Part shown: one piece after another, positions 7,147-11,031 of the stretch
How the letters are laid out: the number at the start of each line of letters is the position of its first letter
Numbering within the stretch: position 1 is the stretch's first letter
Origin: a virus
UHGV virus genome: UHGV-1946153
DNA: 13,440 nucleotides
Reading direction: 5' to 3' (one strand)
The notes under the pieces: generated by a model
Seen by the model: only the letters and a program-made list of their open reading frames with translations
What the model was told of the DNA's origin: nothing
The model's database searches: none
Position numbers and translations under genes: made by a program

Positions 7147-8115
7147 TTAGTAGGTTATTTTTGTTGCGAATACTTCGCCTTTTACGATGGCTGTTATGAT
7201 ATTTTTAGCAACATCTTCTGGTGCGCCAACCTTGATAAGGTCAGCAAGTATTTTGTTATTTACTTCTTTCCGGTGAGCTTTATCCTTTGCTCTACGCTCT
7301 TCTTCGTCCTTGATTCTTTTTTCTTCTGCTATTCTGGCTTGCTCTTTTGCTTCAGCCTCGCGCCGGATTCGTTCAGCCTCCTCCTGTGCTTTTCGGCGTT
7401 CTGCTTCAATTGCCGCCTGCTTTTCTCTTTCAGCTCGTTCTGCTGCCTCTTTTGCTTCGCGCTGTGCTCGTTGCTCGGCTTCAATGCGTTCACGCTCTGC
7501 ACGTTCCGCTGCGGCCTTAGCTTCTGCTTCTCGCCTTGCTGCTGCTTCAATTTCGGCTTTTGCCTTTGCTTCGGCTTCAGCTCTGGCTTTCTCTTCAGCT
7601 TCTCTTTGTAAGCGTTCTTCATGCTCTCGCTTTTCCTGCTCCGCTTTGAGTCTTGCCTCTTCTCTTTGGCGGTCAAATTCGCGATCCATCAAAATCGCTA
7701 TTTCATGGTCAGACTCAATTTGCTTTGCGAGAGCTTCAGCTGCTGCCTTAGCTTCTTCTTCGGCTTTAATCCGCGCCTGTTCTTCCTCATAATCAGTAAG
7801 AGGCTGGCGCGCCTTGGCTTTCAGTTCATCAAGGCGATCGCGCACTGTCTTGCGGTTGGCATCAATTAGCTTTGGAATTTCCTTCAGTTCAGCAACAAGG
7901 TCTTTGCCAAGACCATCGAGATATGTTTTCGTCTGCGCAACTTTATACGCCAGAGAAGCGATCTCCTTTCTGCCCTTTGCCGTTGTGATATCAGGCACAA
8001 AGGACATAACTTCACGTTCAACCTTTTGAAGGATTTCTTCAATCTGGTCGGCAGACTGAAATACAGTCATTGCATTTGCTTTTTCAATAACAACTAAATC
8101 TGTTACTTCACTCAT
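7147..8115 (-). CDS. Hypothetical protein, 322 aa, with a long Glu/Ala/Lys/Arg-rich helical region
   Basis: ATG at 8113-8115 with GGAGG 4 nt upstream. A globular N-terminal domain is followed by about 170 residues of EAKR-rich sequence typical of a single alpha-helix or coiled coil, then a short C-terminal domain. Confidence 0.75.
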   Translation of the reverse strand: MSEVTDLVVIEKANAMTVFQSADQIEEILQKVEREVMSFVPDITTAKGRKEIASLAYKVAQTKTYLDGLGKDLVAELKEIPKLIDANRKTVRDRLDELKAKARQPLTDYEEEQARIKAEEEAKAAAEALAKQIESDHEIAILMDREFDRQREEARLKAEQEKREHEERLQREAEEKARAEAEAKAKAEIEAAARREAEAKAAAERAERERIEAEQRAQREAKEAAERAEREKQAAIEAERRKAQEEAERIRREAEAKEQARIAEEKRIKDEEERRAKDKAHRKEVNNKILADLIKVGAPEDVAKNIITAIVKGEVFATKITY

Positions 8116-8151
8116 ATATCCTCCATCAAAAAATCGCCCTCACATTGGAGG

Positions 8152-8225
8152 NNNNNNNNNNNNNNNNNNNNNNNNNNNNNNNNNNNNNNNNNNNNNNNNN
8201 NNNNNNNNNNNNNNNNNNNNNNNNN
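8152..8225. other. Assembly gap / masked bases (74 N)
   Basis: Run of N characters between the 322-aa gene and the AT-rich cassette. Confidence 0.99.
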
Positions 8226-8257
8226 TCGTTGGAATGAATACACAGTGCTTATTCGTA

Positions 8258-8774: not shown

Positions 8775-8800
8775 CCAAAAGAAGGCCGACTATGCGGCCT
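8775..8800 (-). terminator. Putative intrinsic terminator between the two cassette genes
   Basis: Minus-strand hairpin AGGCCG-catagt-CGGCCT followed by TTCTTTTGG. Confidence 0.35.
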
Positions 8801-8841: not shown

Positions 8842-9105
8842 TTATGATGGAATGTACAAAACCACTTTCCAGTTCATAGAAGTGGATGATGGCATAAAAT
8901 AATCCCACGACTCATTAGCTACTAACTCTTTATTAACTGTGGTGGCAGCAATTTCGGCATCACCTTTATTATTAAAAATGTCGTTCGAATACTGACATTT
9001 TCCATCTGCATGCACATATAAAATATCATATGTATCTGTATCGTAATAACCGCTTATGTCTCTGATAACAATTCCTGGCTTCAATGATTTAATTTTCTTG
9101 TCCAT
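8842..9105 (-). CDS. Hypothetical protein, 87 aa (AT-rich accessory cassette)
   Basis: ATG at 9103-9105, 8 nt after the N stop codon, with the same GAGGTGATAT leader as the 156-aa gene. No recognised domain. Confidence 0.6.
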   Translation of the reverse strand: MDKKIKSLKPGIVIRDISGYYDTDTYDILYVHADGKCQYSNDIFNNKGDAEIAATTVNKELVANESWDYFMPSSTSMNWKVVLYIPS

Positions 9106-9113
9106 ATATCACC

Positions 9114-9413
9114 TCAAATAAGTGGTTTGCTGCCTAATTTCATTTTCTGGCGACCAACACAAGTCACACCCATTTCACTGCGTGGCTTGCGGTAGTAAAT
9201 ACGGTTCTGTTTACGCTCGACTTCTTCTGCCTTCTTGCAGCGAAGGCTTCCGAGCGATGCTGCTTTATCTGCTCTGACGCAACCAGAGAGCTTTAGCGCA
9301 ATTTTTCGCGCCAGTCGCTGCTCTTGCATTGCCTGTTCACGTTGAGCCTGTCTGCGTGCTCTGCGGCGATTTCTGGCGTTATCGTCAGCCAGATATGTAA
9401 TGACTACTGTCAT
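9114..9413 (-). CDS. N: Antitermination protein N, 99 aa
   Basis: C-terminus ...ERKQNRIYYRKPRSEMGVTCVGRQKMKLGSKPLI closely parallels lambda N (...ERKNQRTWYSKPGERGITCSGRQKIKGKSIPLI). N-terminal arginine-rich motif NARNRRRARRQAQREQ. RBS GGAGG 5 nt before the ATG at 9411-9413. Confidence 0.88.
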   Translation of the reverse strand: MTVVITYLADDNARNRRRARRQAQREQAMQEQRLARKIALKLSGCVRADKAASLGSLRCKKAEEVERKQNRIYYRKPRSEMGVTCVGRQKMKLGSKPLI

Positions 9414-9520
9414 GTTGACCTCCGATGATTGACTTTGGCGGTGACGCGCCGGGTGCTTATCTTCCGGTTGCCGTCGTGCAGCTGCACTTCACGTCACCCC
9501 AAAGCCAACTACTCTTTGGT

Positions 9521-9561
9521 TCCCGCATTTCGGCGGGACAATCCCATCAATGTTAAAGAGC
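9521..9561 (-). promoter_or_regulatory. nutL-like site (boxA + boxB)
   Basis: Read on the minus strand: GCTCTTTAACA (boxA-like; lambda CGCTCTTA) then the hairpin CCCGC-CGAAAT-GCGGGA (boxB-like). Lies between pL and N, and the boxB core is identical to nutR. Confidence 0.6.
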
Positions 9562-9600
9562 CTGCCAATCTGTTCCGTTTGGCTACCAGCGTCCTGCTGA

Positions 9601-9690
9601 TGGCTTAAATTTAAGATCTCTTTAATTAATGGTCAAGAGTATTTTTGAAGAAAACTTAAATTTTCTTTCGTAACTTAAGTTTGGCTTTGA
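9601..9690 (-). promoter_or_regulatory. oL/pL region: leftward early promoter with operator palindromes
   Basis: Candidate pL on the minus strand: -35 TTGACC (rc of 9631-9636), 17-bp spacer, -10 TTAAAT (rc of 9608-9613). Palindromes: CTTAAATTTAAG (9604-9615, overlapping -10), GAAAACTTAAATTTTC (9650-9665), AACTTAAGTT (9672-9681). Confidence 0.55.
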
Positions 9691-9704
9691 TTTTTAAAGG
9701 AAAT

Positions 9705-9727
9705 AAAAAAAAGGGGCGAATGCCCCC
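9705..9727 (-). terminator. Intrinsic terminator directly after the cI stop codon
   Basis: Minus-strand GGGGC-ATTC-GCCCC hairpin followed by eight T residues, immediately 3' of cI. Confidence 0.75.
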
Positions 9728-10378
9728 TTATGGAAGGTTTGCTAGTTTTGCATCGACAACTACGCCGATGATTTTGCAGTTCCCGTTGATCTCGATCATC
9801 GGATATTGTGGGTTAAGTGGTTTTAGAAACTTCCTGCCTGCATCAATAACTAACTTCTTGAAAGTTGCCTCGTTTTCTCCTTCGAGCTTTGCAACTACCA
9901 GTTTCCCGTTACGCGGCTCTACTTCAGGATCGACGAGTATTATCATTCCTTCAGGGATACTGAGACCGGCCGGAGCCGTCATTGAGTCTCCCTTCACGTC
10001 CAACCAAAACGAATCGTCTGAACAGTCTACGGTTGTATCGTACCAGTTATCTATTGCACGCTTATGATATGGTTCTACAGCTTCCATCCAGCATCCTGCG
10101 CTCACCCAGCTAATCAGAGGGTATGACCCTCTTGGATCATGCCTACTGTGATAGGCAATGTTTGAAAGACTTTCCTCTCCTTTCATCAGATAGTCAGGGG
10201 AACACTTCAACGCATTAGCCAGGGCGAGAAGATTCTCTCCATTTGGCTCTGTCTCAGAGCGTTCCCACTGAGATATGGCAACATTAGACACGCCGACCAT
10301 CTTTCCAAGTGCGGCCTGCCTGATCTTGAGTTCTTTTCTCCGAGCGCGAATGCGCTCTCCCATCAATTGAGTTTTCAT
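9728..10378 (-). CDS. cI: CI-type prophage repressor (XRE HTH N-terminus, LexA/S24 autocleavable C-terminus), 216 aa
   Basis: N-terminal HTH LGKMVGVSNVAISQWERSE. Ala-Gly cleavage-site context PLISWVSAGCW (lambda cI: FSHVQAGMF). Catalytic Ser in VKGDSM and Lys in LVVAKL. No upstream Shine-Dalgarno, so a leaderless lambda-cI-like start is plausible. Confidence 0.92.
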   Translation of the reverse strand: MKTQLMGERIRARRKELKIRQAALGKMVGVSNVAISQWERSETEPNGENLLALANALKCSPDYLMKGEESLSNIAYHSRHDPRGSYPLISWVSAGCWMEAVEPYHKRAIDNWYDTTVDCSDDSFWLDVKGDSMTAPAGLSIPEGMIILVDPEVEPRNGKLVVAKLEGENEATFKKLVIDAGRKFLKPLNPQYPMIEINGNCKIIGVVVDAKLANLP

Positions 10379-10458
10379 AGTTAAGACATCTTAAATAAAC
10401 TTGACTTAAGATTCCTTTAGTGGATAATTTAAGTGTTCTTTAATTTCGGAGCGAGTCT
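10379..10458. promoter_or_regulatory. oR / pR / pRM divergent control region
   Basis: Intergenic region between divergent cI and cro. TTAA-centred palindromes TTAAGACATCTTAA (10381-10394), CTTAAG (10405-10410) and TTTAAG (10428-10433) resemble the oL motifs. Confidence 0.6.
10401..10428 (+). promoter_or_regulatory. pR-like promoter for cro
   Basis: -35 TTGACT (10401-10406), 16-bp spacer, -10 GATAAT (10423-10428), about 30 nt upstream of the cro ATG. Confidence 0.55.
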
Positions 10459-10644
10459 ATGTACAAGAAAGATGTTATCGACCACTTCGGAACCCAGCGT
10501 GCTGTAGCTAAAGCGTTAGGCATTAGCGACGCAGCAGTCTCTCAGTGGAAGGAAGTCATCCCAGAGAAAGACGCCTATCGACTGGAAGTCGTTACAGCTG
10601 GCGCCCTGAAGTATCAAGAAAGCGCTTACCGCAAAGCGGCATAA
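10459..10644 (+). CDS. cro: Cro-like HTH repressor, 61 aa
   Basis: Divergent from cI. RBS GGAG 7 nt before the ATG. HTH QRAVAKALGISDAAVSQW. Size and position match Cro. Confidence 0.8.
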   Translation: MYKKDVIDHFGTQRAVAKALGISDAAVSQWKEVIPEKDAYRLEVVTAGALKYQESAYRKAA

Positions 10645-10651
10645 GCAAATT

Positions 10652-10696
10652 GCTCTTTAACAGTCATGGTCCTCATTCCCGCCGAAATGCGGGAAT
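10652..10696 (+). promoter_or_regulatory. nutR-like site (boxA + boxB)
   Basis: boxA-like GCTCTTTAACA (10652-10662), then a 12-nt spacer and the boxB hairpin ATTCCCGC-CGAAAT-GCGGGAAT (10675-10696) with an 8-bp stem. Core is identical to nutL. Confidence 0.65.
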
Positions 10697-10701
10697 ACAA
10701 C

Positions 10702-10736
10702 GCGCATAAGTTGATGCGCATAACTTCTTATTTGTT
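10702..10736 (+). terminator. Possible tR1-like terminator between nutR and cII
   Basis: Hairpin GCGCAT-aagttg-ATGCGC (10702-10719) followed by the T-rich ATAACTTCTTATTTGTT. Weak as an intrinsic terminator; lambda tR1 is rho-dependent. Confidence 0.3.
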
Positions 10737-10752
10737 AAGGAAATACTTACAT

Positions 10753-11031
10753 ATGGAACTTACAAGTACTCGCAAGAAAGCGAATGCAATTACAAGCAAC
10801 ATCCTGAATCGAATTGCTGTACGTGGTCAGCGAAAGGTTGCTGATGCGTTAGGGATTAATGAATCGCAAATTTCGCGATGGAAAGACAGCTTTATCCCAA
10901 AAATGGGAATGCTTCTGGCTGTTCTTGAATGGGGTGTTGAAGACGAGGAGTTGGCGGAACTGGCTAAGAAAGTAGCCAGAATGCTGACAAAAGAAAAAGC
11001 CCCGAAGAACGGCGAATTCTTCGAGGCCTGA
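10753..11031 (+). CDS. cII: CII transcriptional activator, 92 aa
   Basis: Start at ATG 10753 rather than track position 10666, which would run through nutR. Aligns with lambda CII from the first Met: ...NILNRIAVRG...ESQISRWKDSFIPKMGMLLAVLEWGV versus lambda ...LLNKIAMLG...KSQISRWKRDWIPKFSMLLAVLEWGV. Confidence 0.88.
   Translation: MELTSTRKKANAITSNILNRIAVRGQRKVADALGINESQISRWKDSFIPKMGMLLAVLEWGVEDEELAELAKKVARMLTKEKAPKNGEFFEA

What the first reader, a model, noticed from the sequence alone, without database searches (positions are those of the whole stretch)
9521..10696. nutL and nutR carry an identical 17-nt boxB core and the same boxA-like element
CCCGCCGAAATGCGGGA occurs on the minus strand upstream of N (rc of 9521-9538) and on the plus strand downstream of cro (10678-10694), each preceded by GCTCTTTAACA. 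This is the expected architecture for N-dependent antitermination. The boxB loop (CGAAAT, 6 nt) differs from the lambda GAAAA pentaloop, which implies a distinct N/boxB specificity matching this N's arginine-rich motif.
Basis: seen in the sequence. Interest (0 to 1): 0.45.

Follow-up and report, generated by a model that had tools for sequence, protein, structure and literature searches.

The report
Matched nutL/nutR antitermination sites (HK620 type)
These are the two N-utilisation (nut) RNA sites of a CUS-3/HK620-like lambdoid prophage, real and paired with a matching N protein, but the identical sites were already annotated as putative nut sites in phage HK620 in 2001, so the finding is correct and largely ordinary.

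Summary
An identical hairpin core lies on the minus strand between pL and N and on the plus strand between cro and cII. It is 19 nt long rather than 17 (TCCCGCCGAAATGCGGGAA, 9520-9538 and 10677-10695). Each copy follows GCTCTTTAACA, which is the boxA annotated in phage 21.

The window is about 99% identical to phages CUS-3, N7 and IME10. Its N protein equals phage 21 N from residue 34 onward. Residues 1-33 (the arginine-rich motif, ARM) and both boxB hairpins differ from phage 21, while the sequence around them is 93-100% identical.

In a sample chosen without reference to either feature, all 55 loci with the phage-21 ARM had the phage-21 boxB, and all 24 readable loci with this ARM had the CGAAAU boxB. 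The ARM/boxB pair also persists across at least four N C-terminal tails, different immunity regions, and phages of E. coli, Pantoea and Erwinia.

Natural loop variants (CGCAAU, AGGAAU) keep G-N-R-A in the middle. This suggests a true GNRA tetraloop on a C.U platform, parallel to phage 21's C[UAAC]C.

HK620's GenBank record already marks these sequences as putative nutL and nutR, and the module occurs in about 10% of complete E. coli genomes. No biochemical test of this pair was found.

The parts
9608..9636 (-). pL-like promoter (TTGACC, 17-nt spacer, TAAATT) driving the leftward early transcript that carries nutL and N
   Evidence: Promoter scan. It aligns with the phage 21 pL/OL region at 80-97% identity. 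P22/21-type operator inverted repeats overlap it.
9551..9561 (-). boxA-L: GCTCTTTAACA, with the 8-nt boxA core GCTCTTTA at 9554-9561
   Evidence: Exact match. It is identical to, and aligned with, the annotated boxA-L of phage 21.
9539..9550 (-). boxA-boxB spacer of nutL (TTGATGGGATTG). Its 5' part is conserved across E. coli, Pantoea and Erwinia relatives and in phage 21.
   Evidence: Alignments.
9520..9538 (-). boxB-L hairpin: stem 9538-9533 pairs with 9526-9521; loop CGAAAU at 9532-9527
   Evidence: This is the island of lowest identity to phage 21, about 50%. Identical sequence is annotated as putative nutL in HK620.
9499..9519 (-). Second hairpin directly abutting boxB-L (CCAAAG...CUUUGG), conserved in phage 21, Pantoea PA-1, Erwinia Eho49 and a Pantoea prophage. 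Role unknown.
   Evidence: Consensus fold of 5 leaders: 7 pairs, with one compensatory change and one wobble change.
9315..9413 (-). N codons 1-33: the leader plus the arginine-rich motif (MTVVITYLADDNARNRRRARRQAQREQAMQEQR), the proposed boxB-recognition module
   Evidence: Identity to phage 21 drops to 55-63% here, against 97-100% in the rest of N. The ARM core DNA(R/K)NRRRx(R/K)R is conserved in 79 N ORFs downstream of this boxB type.
9114..9314 (-). N codons 34-99 plus stop: central and C-terminal parts, phage 21/lambda type. By homology these carry the NusA- and RNA-polymerase-binding regions.
   Evidence: 97-100% identical to phage 21 N DNA. Residues 62-99 align to lambda N residues 74-110 of PDB entry 6GOV, E = 2.5e-4. 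PHROG 271 'anti-termination protein N-like', E = 4.8e-37.
8783..8800 (-). Terminator-like hairpin plus T-run on the pL transcript downstream of N: a candidate target of antitermination
   Evidence: Terminator scan. This is a consensus match only.
10401..10428 (+). pR-like promoter (TTGACT, 16-nt spacer, GATAAT) driving cro-nutR-cII
   Evidence: Promoter scan, 10 of 12 matches. 97-100% identical to phage 21.
10652..10662 (+). boxA-R: GCTCTTTAACA, with the 8-nt core at 10652-10659, 8 nt after the cro stop codon
   Evidence: Exact match. Aligned with the annotated boxA-R of phage 21.
10675..10696 (+). boxB-R hairpin: stem 10675-10682 pairs with 10689-10696; loop CGAAAU at 10683-10688. The core identical to boxB-L is 10677-10695.
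   Evidence: Identity to phage 21 falls from about 95% to about 60% starting here. Identical sequence is annotated as putative nutR in HK620.
10702..10719 (+). Hairpin GCGCAU-AAGUUG-AUGCGC just after boxB-R, with no U-run. It lies in the tR1 region as annotated in HK620. Possibly part of a Rho-dependent tR1, by analogy only.
   Evidence: Fold. Not flagged as an intrinsic terminator. HK620 annotates tR1 immediately after nutR.

Best explanation
These are the nutL and nutR sites of a P22-like (Lederbergvirus, CUS-3/HK620 group) temperate phage. They work with the phage's own N protein in lambda-style processive antitermination.

The proposed mechanism is as follows. RNA polymerase starting at pL or pR transcribes boxA (GCUCUUUA) and then boxB. 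By analogy with lambda, boxA is bound by host NusB/NusE. BoxB folds into a 6-8 bp hairpin capped by C-GAAA-U. The N-terminal arginine-rich helix of N (residues about 10-30, ...DDNARNRRRARRQAQREQ...) binds this hairpin. The central and C-terminal parts of N are of phage 21/lambda type. They engage NusA and RNA polymerase, so the elongation complex reads through downstream terminators into the delayed-early genes.

What is shown here: the anatomy, the homology, and the strict co-inheritance of this ARM with this boxB.

What is inferred: RNA binding, Nus dependence and read-through.

The hexaloop is best read as a genuine GNRA tetraloop (GAAA) flanked by a non-canonical C.U pair. This has the same layout as phage 21's C[UAAC]C hexaloop, but with a true GNRA in place of the UMAC mimic. 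This ARM/boxB pair is therefore a specificity variant within the N/nut family, referred to here as the HK620 type.
For: Position and sequence. The sites align with the annotated boxA-L, nutL, boxA-R and nutR of phage 21. Promoters lie upstream, and N or cII lies downstream.

The N protein. It is 71% identical to phage 21 N overall and nearly identical from residue 34. It matches PHROG 271 at E = 5e-37. Its C-terminus matches lambda N in the solved antitermination complex 6GOV.

Co-variation. Against phage 21, divergence is concentrated in two islands on the left, the ARM codons 9315-9430 and boxB-L 9505-9549. On the right it starts exactly at boxB-R.

A natural two-by-two mosaic. Phage 21 has the 21-type ARM and the lambda-type tail. 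HK629 has the 21-type ARM and the P22/H-19B-type tail. The window has the HK620-type ARM and the lambda-type tail. HK620 has the HK620-type ARM and the P22/H-19B-type tail. In all four, boxB follows the ARM and not the tail.

Population samples.
- In a sample drawn with HK629 N, 55/55 loci with the 21-type ARM had the CUAACC boxB, and 24/24 readable loci with the HK620-type ARM had the CGAAAU boxB.
- In a sample selected by the loop, 172 stem-forming sites split into 79 followed by an N carrying this ARM, 79 followed by a cII-like gene, and 14 unresolved.

Conservation.
- The same loop with varied stems occurs in Pantoea PA-1 and Erwinia Eho49.
- On 17 distinct variants, 86.8% of cells pair, against 35-60% when partners are slid by 1-3 columns. 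Four pairs show compensatory changes.
- Loop variants CGCAAU (L023, L132) and AGGAAU (L132) accompany the same ARM and keep G-N-R-A.

Structural parallel. The phage 21 hexaloop is described as a GNRA-like UAAC flanked by a C-C pair in PDB entry 1NYB (PMC12550061).

Background. The domain logic of N is that the ARM binds boxB, the centre binds NusA and the C-terminus binds RNA polymerase (PMC3526286). An 8-nt boxA is bound by NusB/NusE (PMC3177189 abstract). There is a published precedent that gp24 proteins of phages P22 and L, with the same N-terminus and boxB but unrelated C-termini, are interchangeable (PMC8022706).
Against: There are no functional data for this ARM/boxB pair. I found no binding, reporter or genetic study. 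A full-text search for the sequence strings returned nothing, and the HK620, CUS-3 and phage 21 structure papers were not readable.

Pfam's N_peptide model scores below its gathering cut-off, 20.2 against 27.9 bits. NCBIfam has no hit and Rfam has no family.

The co-segregation counts come from closely related prophages and are not phylogenetically independent.

The stem-pair statistics were computed on variants that I had pre-filtered for stem formation.

The nutR sites of the Erwinia/Pantoea group carry a recurrent mismatch at the third stem pair.

No intrinsic terminator was detected just downstream of nutR, so the proximal target there would have to be Rho-dependent. That was not tested.
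Confidence: 0.9

Rival explanations
1. The sites are nut sites, but the specificity is not distinct. The ARM recognises a generic GNRA-type fold, so this N and boxB cross-react with lambda or P22 partners. On this view the co-inheritance reflects physical linkage and shared descent rather than selection for a private pair.
For: The ARM keeps the same arginine pattern as lambda N: A-x-x-R-R-R-x-R-R in ARNRRRARR against AQTRRRERR. The loop core is a plain GNRA, and lambda and P22 boxB loops are also GNRA-like folds (PMC12550061). A cited study title states that P22 boxB requirements 'overlap with those of lambda' (Cocozaki 2008, cited). The ARM codons and boxB-L lie only about 100-220 bp apart, so linkage alone explains part of the association.
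Against: boxB-R lies 1.1 kb from the ARM codons, across an immunity region that differs between HK620 and the window, yet it always matches. Against phage 21, divergence forms discrete islands exactly at the three interacting pieces, inside near-identical flanks. No mixed ARM/boxB combination was seen in 79 classified loci. The stem sequence and the C.U platform differ from lambda's U-A-closed pentaloop.
Confidence: 0.2
2. The 19-nt inverted repeats act at the DNA level, for example as recombination or inversion sites or as a protein-binding palindrome flanking the immunity region. On this view they are not RNA elements.
For: They are perfect inverted repeats 1,138 bp apart that bracket cI and cro. 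One relative, L145, shows sequence exchange between the two nut sites.
Against: Each copy is in the sense orientation of its own transcript and follows a boxA at similar spacing. Hairpin potential is kept through compensatory changes while the two copies diverge from each other in Erwinia and Pantoea phages. L145 shows conversion of the spacer, not inversion: gene order is unchanged. The sites are homologous in position to experimentally founded nut sites of phage 21, lambda and P22.
Confidence: 0.03
3. The hairpins are N-independent RNA elements such as intrinsic terminators, attenuators, RNA-stability hairpins or processing sites.
For: They are stable GC-rich hairpins near the 5' ends of early transcripts. 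The pL leader contains other structured elements.
Against: Neither hairpin is followed by a U-run, and neither is flagged by the terminator scan. This hypothesis does not explain the invariant loop, the preceding boxA or the tight coupling to one ARM type.
Confidence: 0.03

Closest known systems
Phage HK620 nutL/nutR and N (GenBank AF335538; also HK140, HK630, mEpX2, mEp213, CUS-3, N7, IME10)
   Same: The ARM-coding and nutL stretch is 99.6-100% identical, and the nutR boxA-boxB sequence is the same. HK620's record annotates exactly these sequences as putative nutL and nutR. The N-terminal 57 residues of N are identical apart from one residue.
   Different: HK620 N carries a P22/H-19B-type C-terminus (...LPNVAIYAAGYRKSKQLTAR), whereas the window has a phage 21/lambda-type tail. 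HK620 has a different immunity region, with a 434/L-like cI and an extra ORF. CUS-3 has about 200 bp extra between nutL and N.
Phage 21 N / nut system (OL657228; N peptide-boxB NMR structure 1NYB)
   Same: The architecture and flanks match. The boxA is identical. N residues 34-99 are nearly identical, and the cI/cro/operators are about 85-100% identical. Both have a 6-nt boxB loop that can be read as a 4-nt GNRA-like turn flanked by a pyrimidine-pyrimidine pair. The ARM aligns without gaps, with shared A13, R16, A19, R20 and R21.
   Different: 27 of the first 33 N residues differ. The boxB stems and loops differ: CUAACC in phage 21 against CGAAAU here. The central four loop bases are a true GNRA here and a UMAC mimic in phage 21.
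Lambda N / boxB (GAAAA or GAAGA pentaloop, GNRA-like fold with one extruded base)
   Same: The gene order is pL-nutL-N and pR-cro-nutR-cII. A boxA lies upstream of boxB. The N C-terminus is homologous. The ARM arginine pattern RRRxRR is shared.
   Different: Lambda's boxA is CGCTCTTA. Its spacer is 8-9 nt, against about 15-17 nt here. Its stem is closed by a U-A pair and its loop is a pentaloop. At the position aligned with lambda Trp18 this ARM has Ala, by my own ungapped hand alignment of the sequences; the role of Trp18 in stacking on the loop is from my own knowledge and was not tested here.
P22 gp24 / boxB (GACAA pentaloop) and phage L gp24
   Same: The boxA core GCTCTTTA is shared, and the genome type is P22-like. 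N shows modularity: the same N-terminus and boxB occur with different C-termini, as published for P22 and L.
   Different: The ARM (GNAKTRRHERRRKLAIER) and the boxB sequences differ.
H-19B / 933W N-nut system
   Same: It is an N/nut system of Stx phages. Its P22-like C-terminal tail is shared with some members of this ARM family.
   Different: The H-19B ARM is RSRRRER (PMC3526286). The nut RNA is reported to contain two hairpins. Its boxB sequence was not compared here.

Membership tests
Lambdoid N/nut processive antitermination system | An N-family protein encoded as the first gene of the pL operon | tested here: met
   The ORF at 9413-9114 (-) lies just downstream of pL and nutL. PHROG 271 'anti-termination protein N-like', E = 4.8e-37. 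71% identical to phage 21 N. The C-terminus matches lambda N in 6GOV. Pfam N_peptide scores only 20.2 bits against a cut-off of 27.9.
Lambdoid N/nut processive antitermination system | An N-terminal arginine-rich motif with the core A-x-x-R-(R)-x-x-R-R | tested here: met
   Residues 13-21 are ARNRRRARR. They align without gaps to phage 21 AKSRYKARR, lambda AQTRRRERR and P22 AKTRRHERR.
Lambdoid N/nut processive antitermination system | A boxA (consensus (C/U)GCUCUU(U)A) upstream of boxB in both early transcripts | tested here: met
   GCTCTTTA at 9561-9554 (-) and 10652-10659 (+). Identical to the annotated boxA-L and boxA-R of phage 21.
Lambdoid N/nut processive antitermination system | A boxB hairpin a short spacer downstream of boxA, present once in each early operon (nutL before N; nutR between cro and cII) | tested here: met
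   The hairpin is conserved with compensatory changes in relatives.
Lambdoid N/nut processive antitermination system | Terminators downstream of the nut sites that N-modified polymerase must pass | tested here: inconclusive
   A terminator-like site lies on the pL transcript at 8800-8783. No intrinsic terminator was found between nutR and cII. HK620 annotates a tR1 right after nutR. Rho-dependent sites cannot be predicted with these tools.
Lambdoid N/nut processive antitermination system | N- and Nus-factor-dependent read-through; N binding to boxB RNA | not testable with these tools
   This needs reporter, binding or genetic assays. No published test of this ARM/boxB pair was found.
HK620-type nut sites (annotated 'putative N-utilization' in AF335538) | The same boxA-spacer-boxB sequences at nutL and nutR, and the same N ARM | tested here: met
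   nutL is identical. nutR is identical from boxA through the hairpin and beyond. N residues 1-56 are identical.
Lambda-type boxB (GNRA-like pentaloop GAAAA/GAAGA) | A 5-nt loop G-A-A-(A/G)-A closed by a U-A pair on a GCCCU/AGGGC stem | tested here: not met
   The loop here is 6 nt, CGAAAU, on a UCCCGC/GCGGGA stem.
Phage 21-type boxB (CUAACC hexaloop) | A hexaloop C-UAAC-C and the phage 21 ARM (GTAKSRYKARRAELIAERR) | tested here: not met
   The loop length and layout are shared, but the loop sequence, stem and ARM differ. The two types never mix across the 79 classified loci.
GNRA tetraloop (as the core of the hexaloop) | Central four loop bases conform to G-N-R-A across natural variants; three-dimensional GNRA fold | tested here: inconclusive
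   The sequence criterion is met: GAAA, GCAA and GGAA are all seen with the same ARM. The fold itself cannot be tested with these tools. The flanking A...U in L132 nutL could be a Watson-Crick closing pair.
Rho-independent terminator | A GC-rich hairpin followed directly by a U-run | tested here: not met
   The tails are ACCAAAGAG (nutL) and UACAACGCG (nutR). Neither site is flagged by the scan.

The most novel reading that the evidence does not exclude
The HK620-type ARM (..DNARNRRRARR..) and its C-[GNRA]-U boxB may form a fourth N-boxB recognition class, structurally distinct from and functionally orthogonal to those of lambda, P22 and phage 21. In it, an unmodified GNRA tetraloop sitting on a C.U (or A-U) platform would be read with no extruded base. 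The identity of the two boxB copies would be maintained by gene conversion between nutL and nutR. If orthogonal, it would be a ready-made extra peptide-RNA tethering pair and a natural case of stepwise re-specification from a phage 21-like ancestor.
Probability: 0.4. Interest if true: 0.4.

Novelty: already known. Interest (0 to 1): 0.25.

Why it matters
The finding as stated matters little. It correctly re-identifies nut sites that are already annotated, as putative, in HK620. They occur in about 10% of complete E. coli genomes (526 of 5,426).

The residual value lies in two points.

First, the locus is an unusually clean natural experiment for N modularity. Against phage 21, only the ARM codons and the two boxB hairpins are replaced inside near-identical flanks. 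All four combinations of two ARM types and two C-terminal tails exist in nature, and boxB always follows the ARM.

Second, as far as I could find, the ARM/boxB pair itself has never been characterised biochemically. Its loop looks like a true GNRA tetraloop on a pyrimidine-pyrimidine platform. It would be a simple addition to the small set of N-peptide/boxB model complexes and tethering tools.

Tried and rejected
- Rfam, with permissive thresholds over the whole window: no family matched.
- tblastn with the 37-residue ARM alone found nothing, apparently because BLAST's low-complexity filter (stated in the tool description to be on) masked the arginine-rich query. I replaced it with DNA and pattern searches.
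- My first Pfam call failed on a wrong cII start coordinate and was repeated.
- My first CUS-3 nutL alignment used coordinates that ignored a roughly 200-bp insertion between nutL and N, so that row of alignment A1 is meaningless. The CUS-3 nutL was then located directly and is identical.
- A regex that stopped at the first loop-like hexamer undercounted nutL sites. It was corrected.
- Twenty of the 192 pattern hits in viral contigs have no stem and are chance matches. L026, which has a quite different 5-bp stem, lies in ordinary coding sequence and was excluded.
- I considered inversion of the immunity region through the inverted boxB copies for locus L145. Gene order is unchanged and only the nutR spacer carries nutL sequence, so I rejected inversion in favour of gene conversion, or an assembly artefact.
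- The genome-representative scan returned only four loci.
- Papers not held: the CUS-3 paper, the phage 21 N-boxB structure paper and a lambda review. The HK620 genome paper (Clark et al. 2001, J Mol Biol) did not appear in either full-text search for HK620, and I did not try to fetch it by identifier. I therefore could not read what the HK620 authors wrote about these nut sites.
- A full-text search for the boxB and ARM sequence strings returned nothing.
HK629 N was used instead.
Full report
OBSERVATION. No match appeared in any of 200 shuffles. The perfectly identical core is 19 nt, TCCCGCCGAAATGCGGGAA, at 9520-9538 and 10677-10695. GCTCTTTAACA also occurs exactly twice, at 9551-9561 (-) and 10652-10662 (+), upstream of each hairpin on its own strand. 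The similarity around it extends to 16 of 18 bases. Both cores fold into a 6-8 bp GC-rich stem with a CGAAAU loop, at -10.5 and -12.5 kcal/mol with z-scores of -2.6 and -4.5.

CONTEXT. The left site lies between a pL-like promoter (9636-9608, -) and a 99-aa ORF (9413-9114, -). The right site lies 8 nt after the stop codon of a P22-type cro (10459-10644) and before cII (10753-11031). A LexA-like cI repressor (10378-9728, -) and a pR-like promoter (10401-10428) lie in between. The region is about 99% identical to phages CUS-3, N7, IME10, Gally and JEP4, and about 85% identical to the immunity region of phage 21. The phage 21 record carries explicit boxA-L, nutL, boxA-R and nutR features. In alignments the window's GCTCTTTA and hairpins fall exactly on them. 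The 99-aa ORF is an N protein. It matches PHROG 271 'anti-termination protein N-like' at E = 5e-37. It is 71% identical to phage 21 N. Its last 38 residues align to the C-terminus of lambda N as seen in the solved antitermination complex 6GOV. Pfam's N_peptide model hits below its cut-off. Rfam and NCBIfam have nothing.

THE KEY RESULT: A MODULE SWAP. N equals phage 21 N from residue 34 to the end, but residues 1-33 differ at 27 positions: MTVVITYLADDNARNRRRARRQAQREQAMQEQR here, against MVTIVWKESKGTAKSRYKARRAELIAERRSNEA in phage 21. A sliding identity profile against phage 21 shows the following.
- 97-100% identity through the 3' two-thirds of N (9100-9310).
- A sharp fall to 55-63% over the ARM codons (9315-9430).
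- Partial recovery to 80-90% in the leader.
- A second fall to about 50% exactly over boxB-L (9505-9549).
- A return to 97-100% at boxA-L and the start of the pL transcript.
- On the right, 93-100% through cro and boxA-R, dropping to about 60% from boxB-R onward.
The parts that differ from phage 21 are therefore the RNA-binding peptide and its two proposed RNA targets. This is the pattern expected if they form a cognate recognition set.

DOES THE ARM TRAVEL WITH THE boxB? Four annotated phages form a natural two-by-two table. Phage 21 has the 21-type ARM and the lambda-type tail. HK629 has the 21-type ARM and the P22/H-19B-type tail. The window and CUS-3 have the HK620-type ARM and the lambda-type tail. 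HK620 has the HK620-type ARM and the P22/H-19B-type tail. In all four, boxB follows the ARM and not the tail.

I then sampled the viral collection in three ways.
- Selecting by boxA plus the loop gave 192 hits, of which 172 form stems. Of these, 79 are followed by an N ORF with the ARM core (A/T)(R/K)NRRRx(R/K)R, 79 by a cII-like gene, and 14 could not be resolved. The N ORFs carry at least four kinds of C-terminal tail.
- Selecting by the ARM found 292 loci. Where the upstream sequence was readable, the same boxB was present.
- Selecting by HK629 N, which shares only the central and C-terminal parts, and then classifying both features blind, gave 55/55 loci with the 21-type ARM and the CUAACC boxB, and 24/24 readable loci with the HK620-type ARM and the CGAAAU boxB. 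There were no mixed cases.
These loci are closely related prophages, so the counts are not independent events. The association nevertheless persists across different tails, across different immunity regions (HK620 has a 434/L-like cI), and across hosts (Pantoea PA-1, Erwinia Eho49, and Pantoea and Erwinia prophages).

THE HAIRPIN IN RELATIVES. On 17 distinct natural variants, 86.8% of cells form standard pairs, against 35-60% when the 3' partner is slid by 1-3 columns. Four of the eight pairs show compensatory changes, for example G-C to A-U next to the closing pair. The caveat is that I had pre-selected variants that form stems. The nutR sites of the Erwinia/Pantoea group carry a recurrent C.C or C.A mismatch at the third pair.

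The loop is CGAAAU in nearly all sites. Two loci selected independently of the loop show CGCAAU at nutR (L023, L132), and L132 shows AGGAAU at nutL, with the same ARM, DNARNRRRA(R/K)R. All variants keep G-N-R-A in the central four positions.

A recent survey of GNRA-like motifs describes the phage 21 boxB hexaloop CUAACC, in NMR entry 1NYB, as a GNRA-like UAAC turn flanked by a non-canonical C-C pair (PMC12550061). By analogy, C-GAAA-U is most simply a genuine GNRA tetraloop on a C.U platform. This is an inference from sequence, not a structural result.

MECHANISM. From established knowledge of the family, N's arginine-rich motif binds boxB, its centre binds NusA and its C-terminus binds RNA polymerase (PMC3526286). 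The 8-nt boxA is bound by NusB-NusE (PMC3177189). Together with NusG these form a termination-resistant complex (PMC2724277 abstract). Every sequence-level requirement is met here. A terminator-like site lies on the pL transcript at 8800-8783. No intrinsic terminator follows nutR, so the proximal rightward target would be Rho-dependent as in lambda, which I could not test. Binding, Nus dependence and read-through are all inferred.

COMPARISON AND NOVELTY. The ARM-coding and nutL stretch is 99.6-100% identical in HK620, HK140, HK630, mEpX2, ECP1, HF4s, phi296 and some Stx1a phages. It occurs in 526 of 5,426 complete E. coli genomes. HK620's GenBank record (AF335538) annotates precisely these sequences as 'nutL; putative N-utilization leftward' and 'nutR; putative N-utilization rightward'. 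The finding is therefore a correct rediscovery. The modular behaviour of N has published precedent in phages P22 and L, whose gp24 proteins share an N-terminus and boxB but have unrelated C-termini (PMC8022706). The epsilon34 genome paper makes the same kind of argument, that a novel N-terminus implies novel boxB specificity (PMC2629481).

RIVALS.
- A DNA-level role for the inverted repeats is unlikely. Each copy is sense to its own transcript and follows a boxA. The RNA pairing is maintained by compensation while the two copies differ from each other in distant relatives.
- An N-independent terminator role is excluded by the absence of U-runs.
- The live alternative concerns only the word 'distinct'. 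The ARM shares lambda's RRRxRR pattern and the loop is a plain GNRA, so some cross-reaction with other N proteins cannot be excluded without assays.

VERDICT. The feature is a known, already annotated type of nut site, and the interest is low to moderate. What remains open is the untested biochemistry of this common ARM/boxB pair. The locus is also an unusually clean natural example of co-replacement of the ARM and both boxB hairpins.

Noticed in passing
L145 (IMGVR_UViG_2718218171_000002), minus-strand site near 2737, compared with window 10652-10700: In this close relative, nutR keeps its cro-side and cII-side flanks, but the boxA-boxB spacer is the nutL version (TTGATGGGATTG). Gene order is unchanged. 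This looks like gene conversion between the two nut sites, primed by the shared boxA and boxB. It could explain why the two boxB copies stay identical. An assembly artefact is not excluded.
   Followed up: partly
window 9499-9519 (-): A second hairpin (CCAAAG...CUUUGG) directly abuts boxB-L. It is conserved in phage 21, Pantoea PA-1, Erwinia Eho49 and a Pantoea prophage, with one compensatory change and one wobble change. It is not part of the classical boxA/boxB description, and its role is unknown.
   Followed up: partly
window 9436-9500 (-): The N leader can form a helix of about 17 bp (GGCUUUGGGGUGACGUG / CGCGUCACCGCCAAAGUC) just upstream of the N ribosome-binding site (z = -3.1). This stretch is 80-90% conserved against phage 21 and lies between two divergent islands. 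It resembles the RNase III-processed N-leader hairpin of lambda. That resemblance is from my own knowledge and was not tested.
   Followed up: no
window 10654-10663 with 10733-10742; and 9558-9553 with 9514-9509 (-): In both nut RNAs, boxA can pair with sequence downstream of boxB. At nutR the partner overlaps the cII ribosome-binding site (z = -2.95). At nutL, CUCUUU pairs with AAAGAG. The nutL partner is not kept in phage 21 or PA-1, so the pairing may be fortuitous.
   Followed up: partly
window 9114-9413 (-) compared with L002, L003 and L004: N shows a complete natural two-by-two mosaic. Two ARM types (phage 21 and HK620) and two C-terminal tails (lambda/21-like ...GRQKxKLGSKPLI and P22/H-19B-like ...LPNVAIYAAGYRKSKQLTAR) occur in all four combinations, joined through a shared central segment, LARKIALKLSGCVRADKAASLGS. 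Further tails occur in the viral collection.
   Followed up: yes
L001 (CUS-3), L134, L137, L158, L165, L192, L204, L205, L208, L132: The distance from boxA-L to the ARM codons varies from about 150 nt in the window to 475-814 nt in some relatives. The increase is due to insertions between nutL and N, including small ORFs in L132. Close spacing of nutL and N is evidently not required.
   Followed up: partly
L005 3954-4003 (+), L006 4294-4343 (+), L131 (-) and about 10 viral loci: The nutR hairpins of the Erwinia/Pantoea group carry a recurrent non-Watson-Crick pair (C.C or C.A) at the third position from the loop, whereas their nutL hairpins are fully paired.
   Followed up: no
L129 (JAJXBQ010000254.1, titled MAG: Segatella copri): A 4.2-kb contig binned as Segatella copri encodes this E. 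coli-phage N at 97% identity, with the identical nutL. This is most likely a binning error or contamination in the metagenome-assembled genome.
   Followed up: no
window about 8150-8226: A run of undetermined or masked bases appears as 25 X residues in two overlapping minus-strand ORF translations.
   Followed up: no
window 7147-8115 (-): A 322-aa ORF in the pL operon has a very long, highly charged E/A/K/R-rich central region. It was not examined.
   Followed up: no
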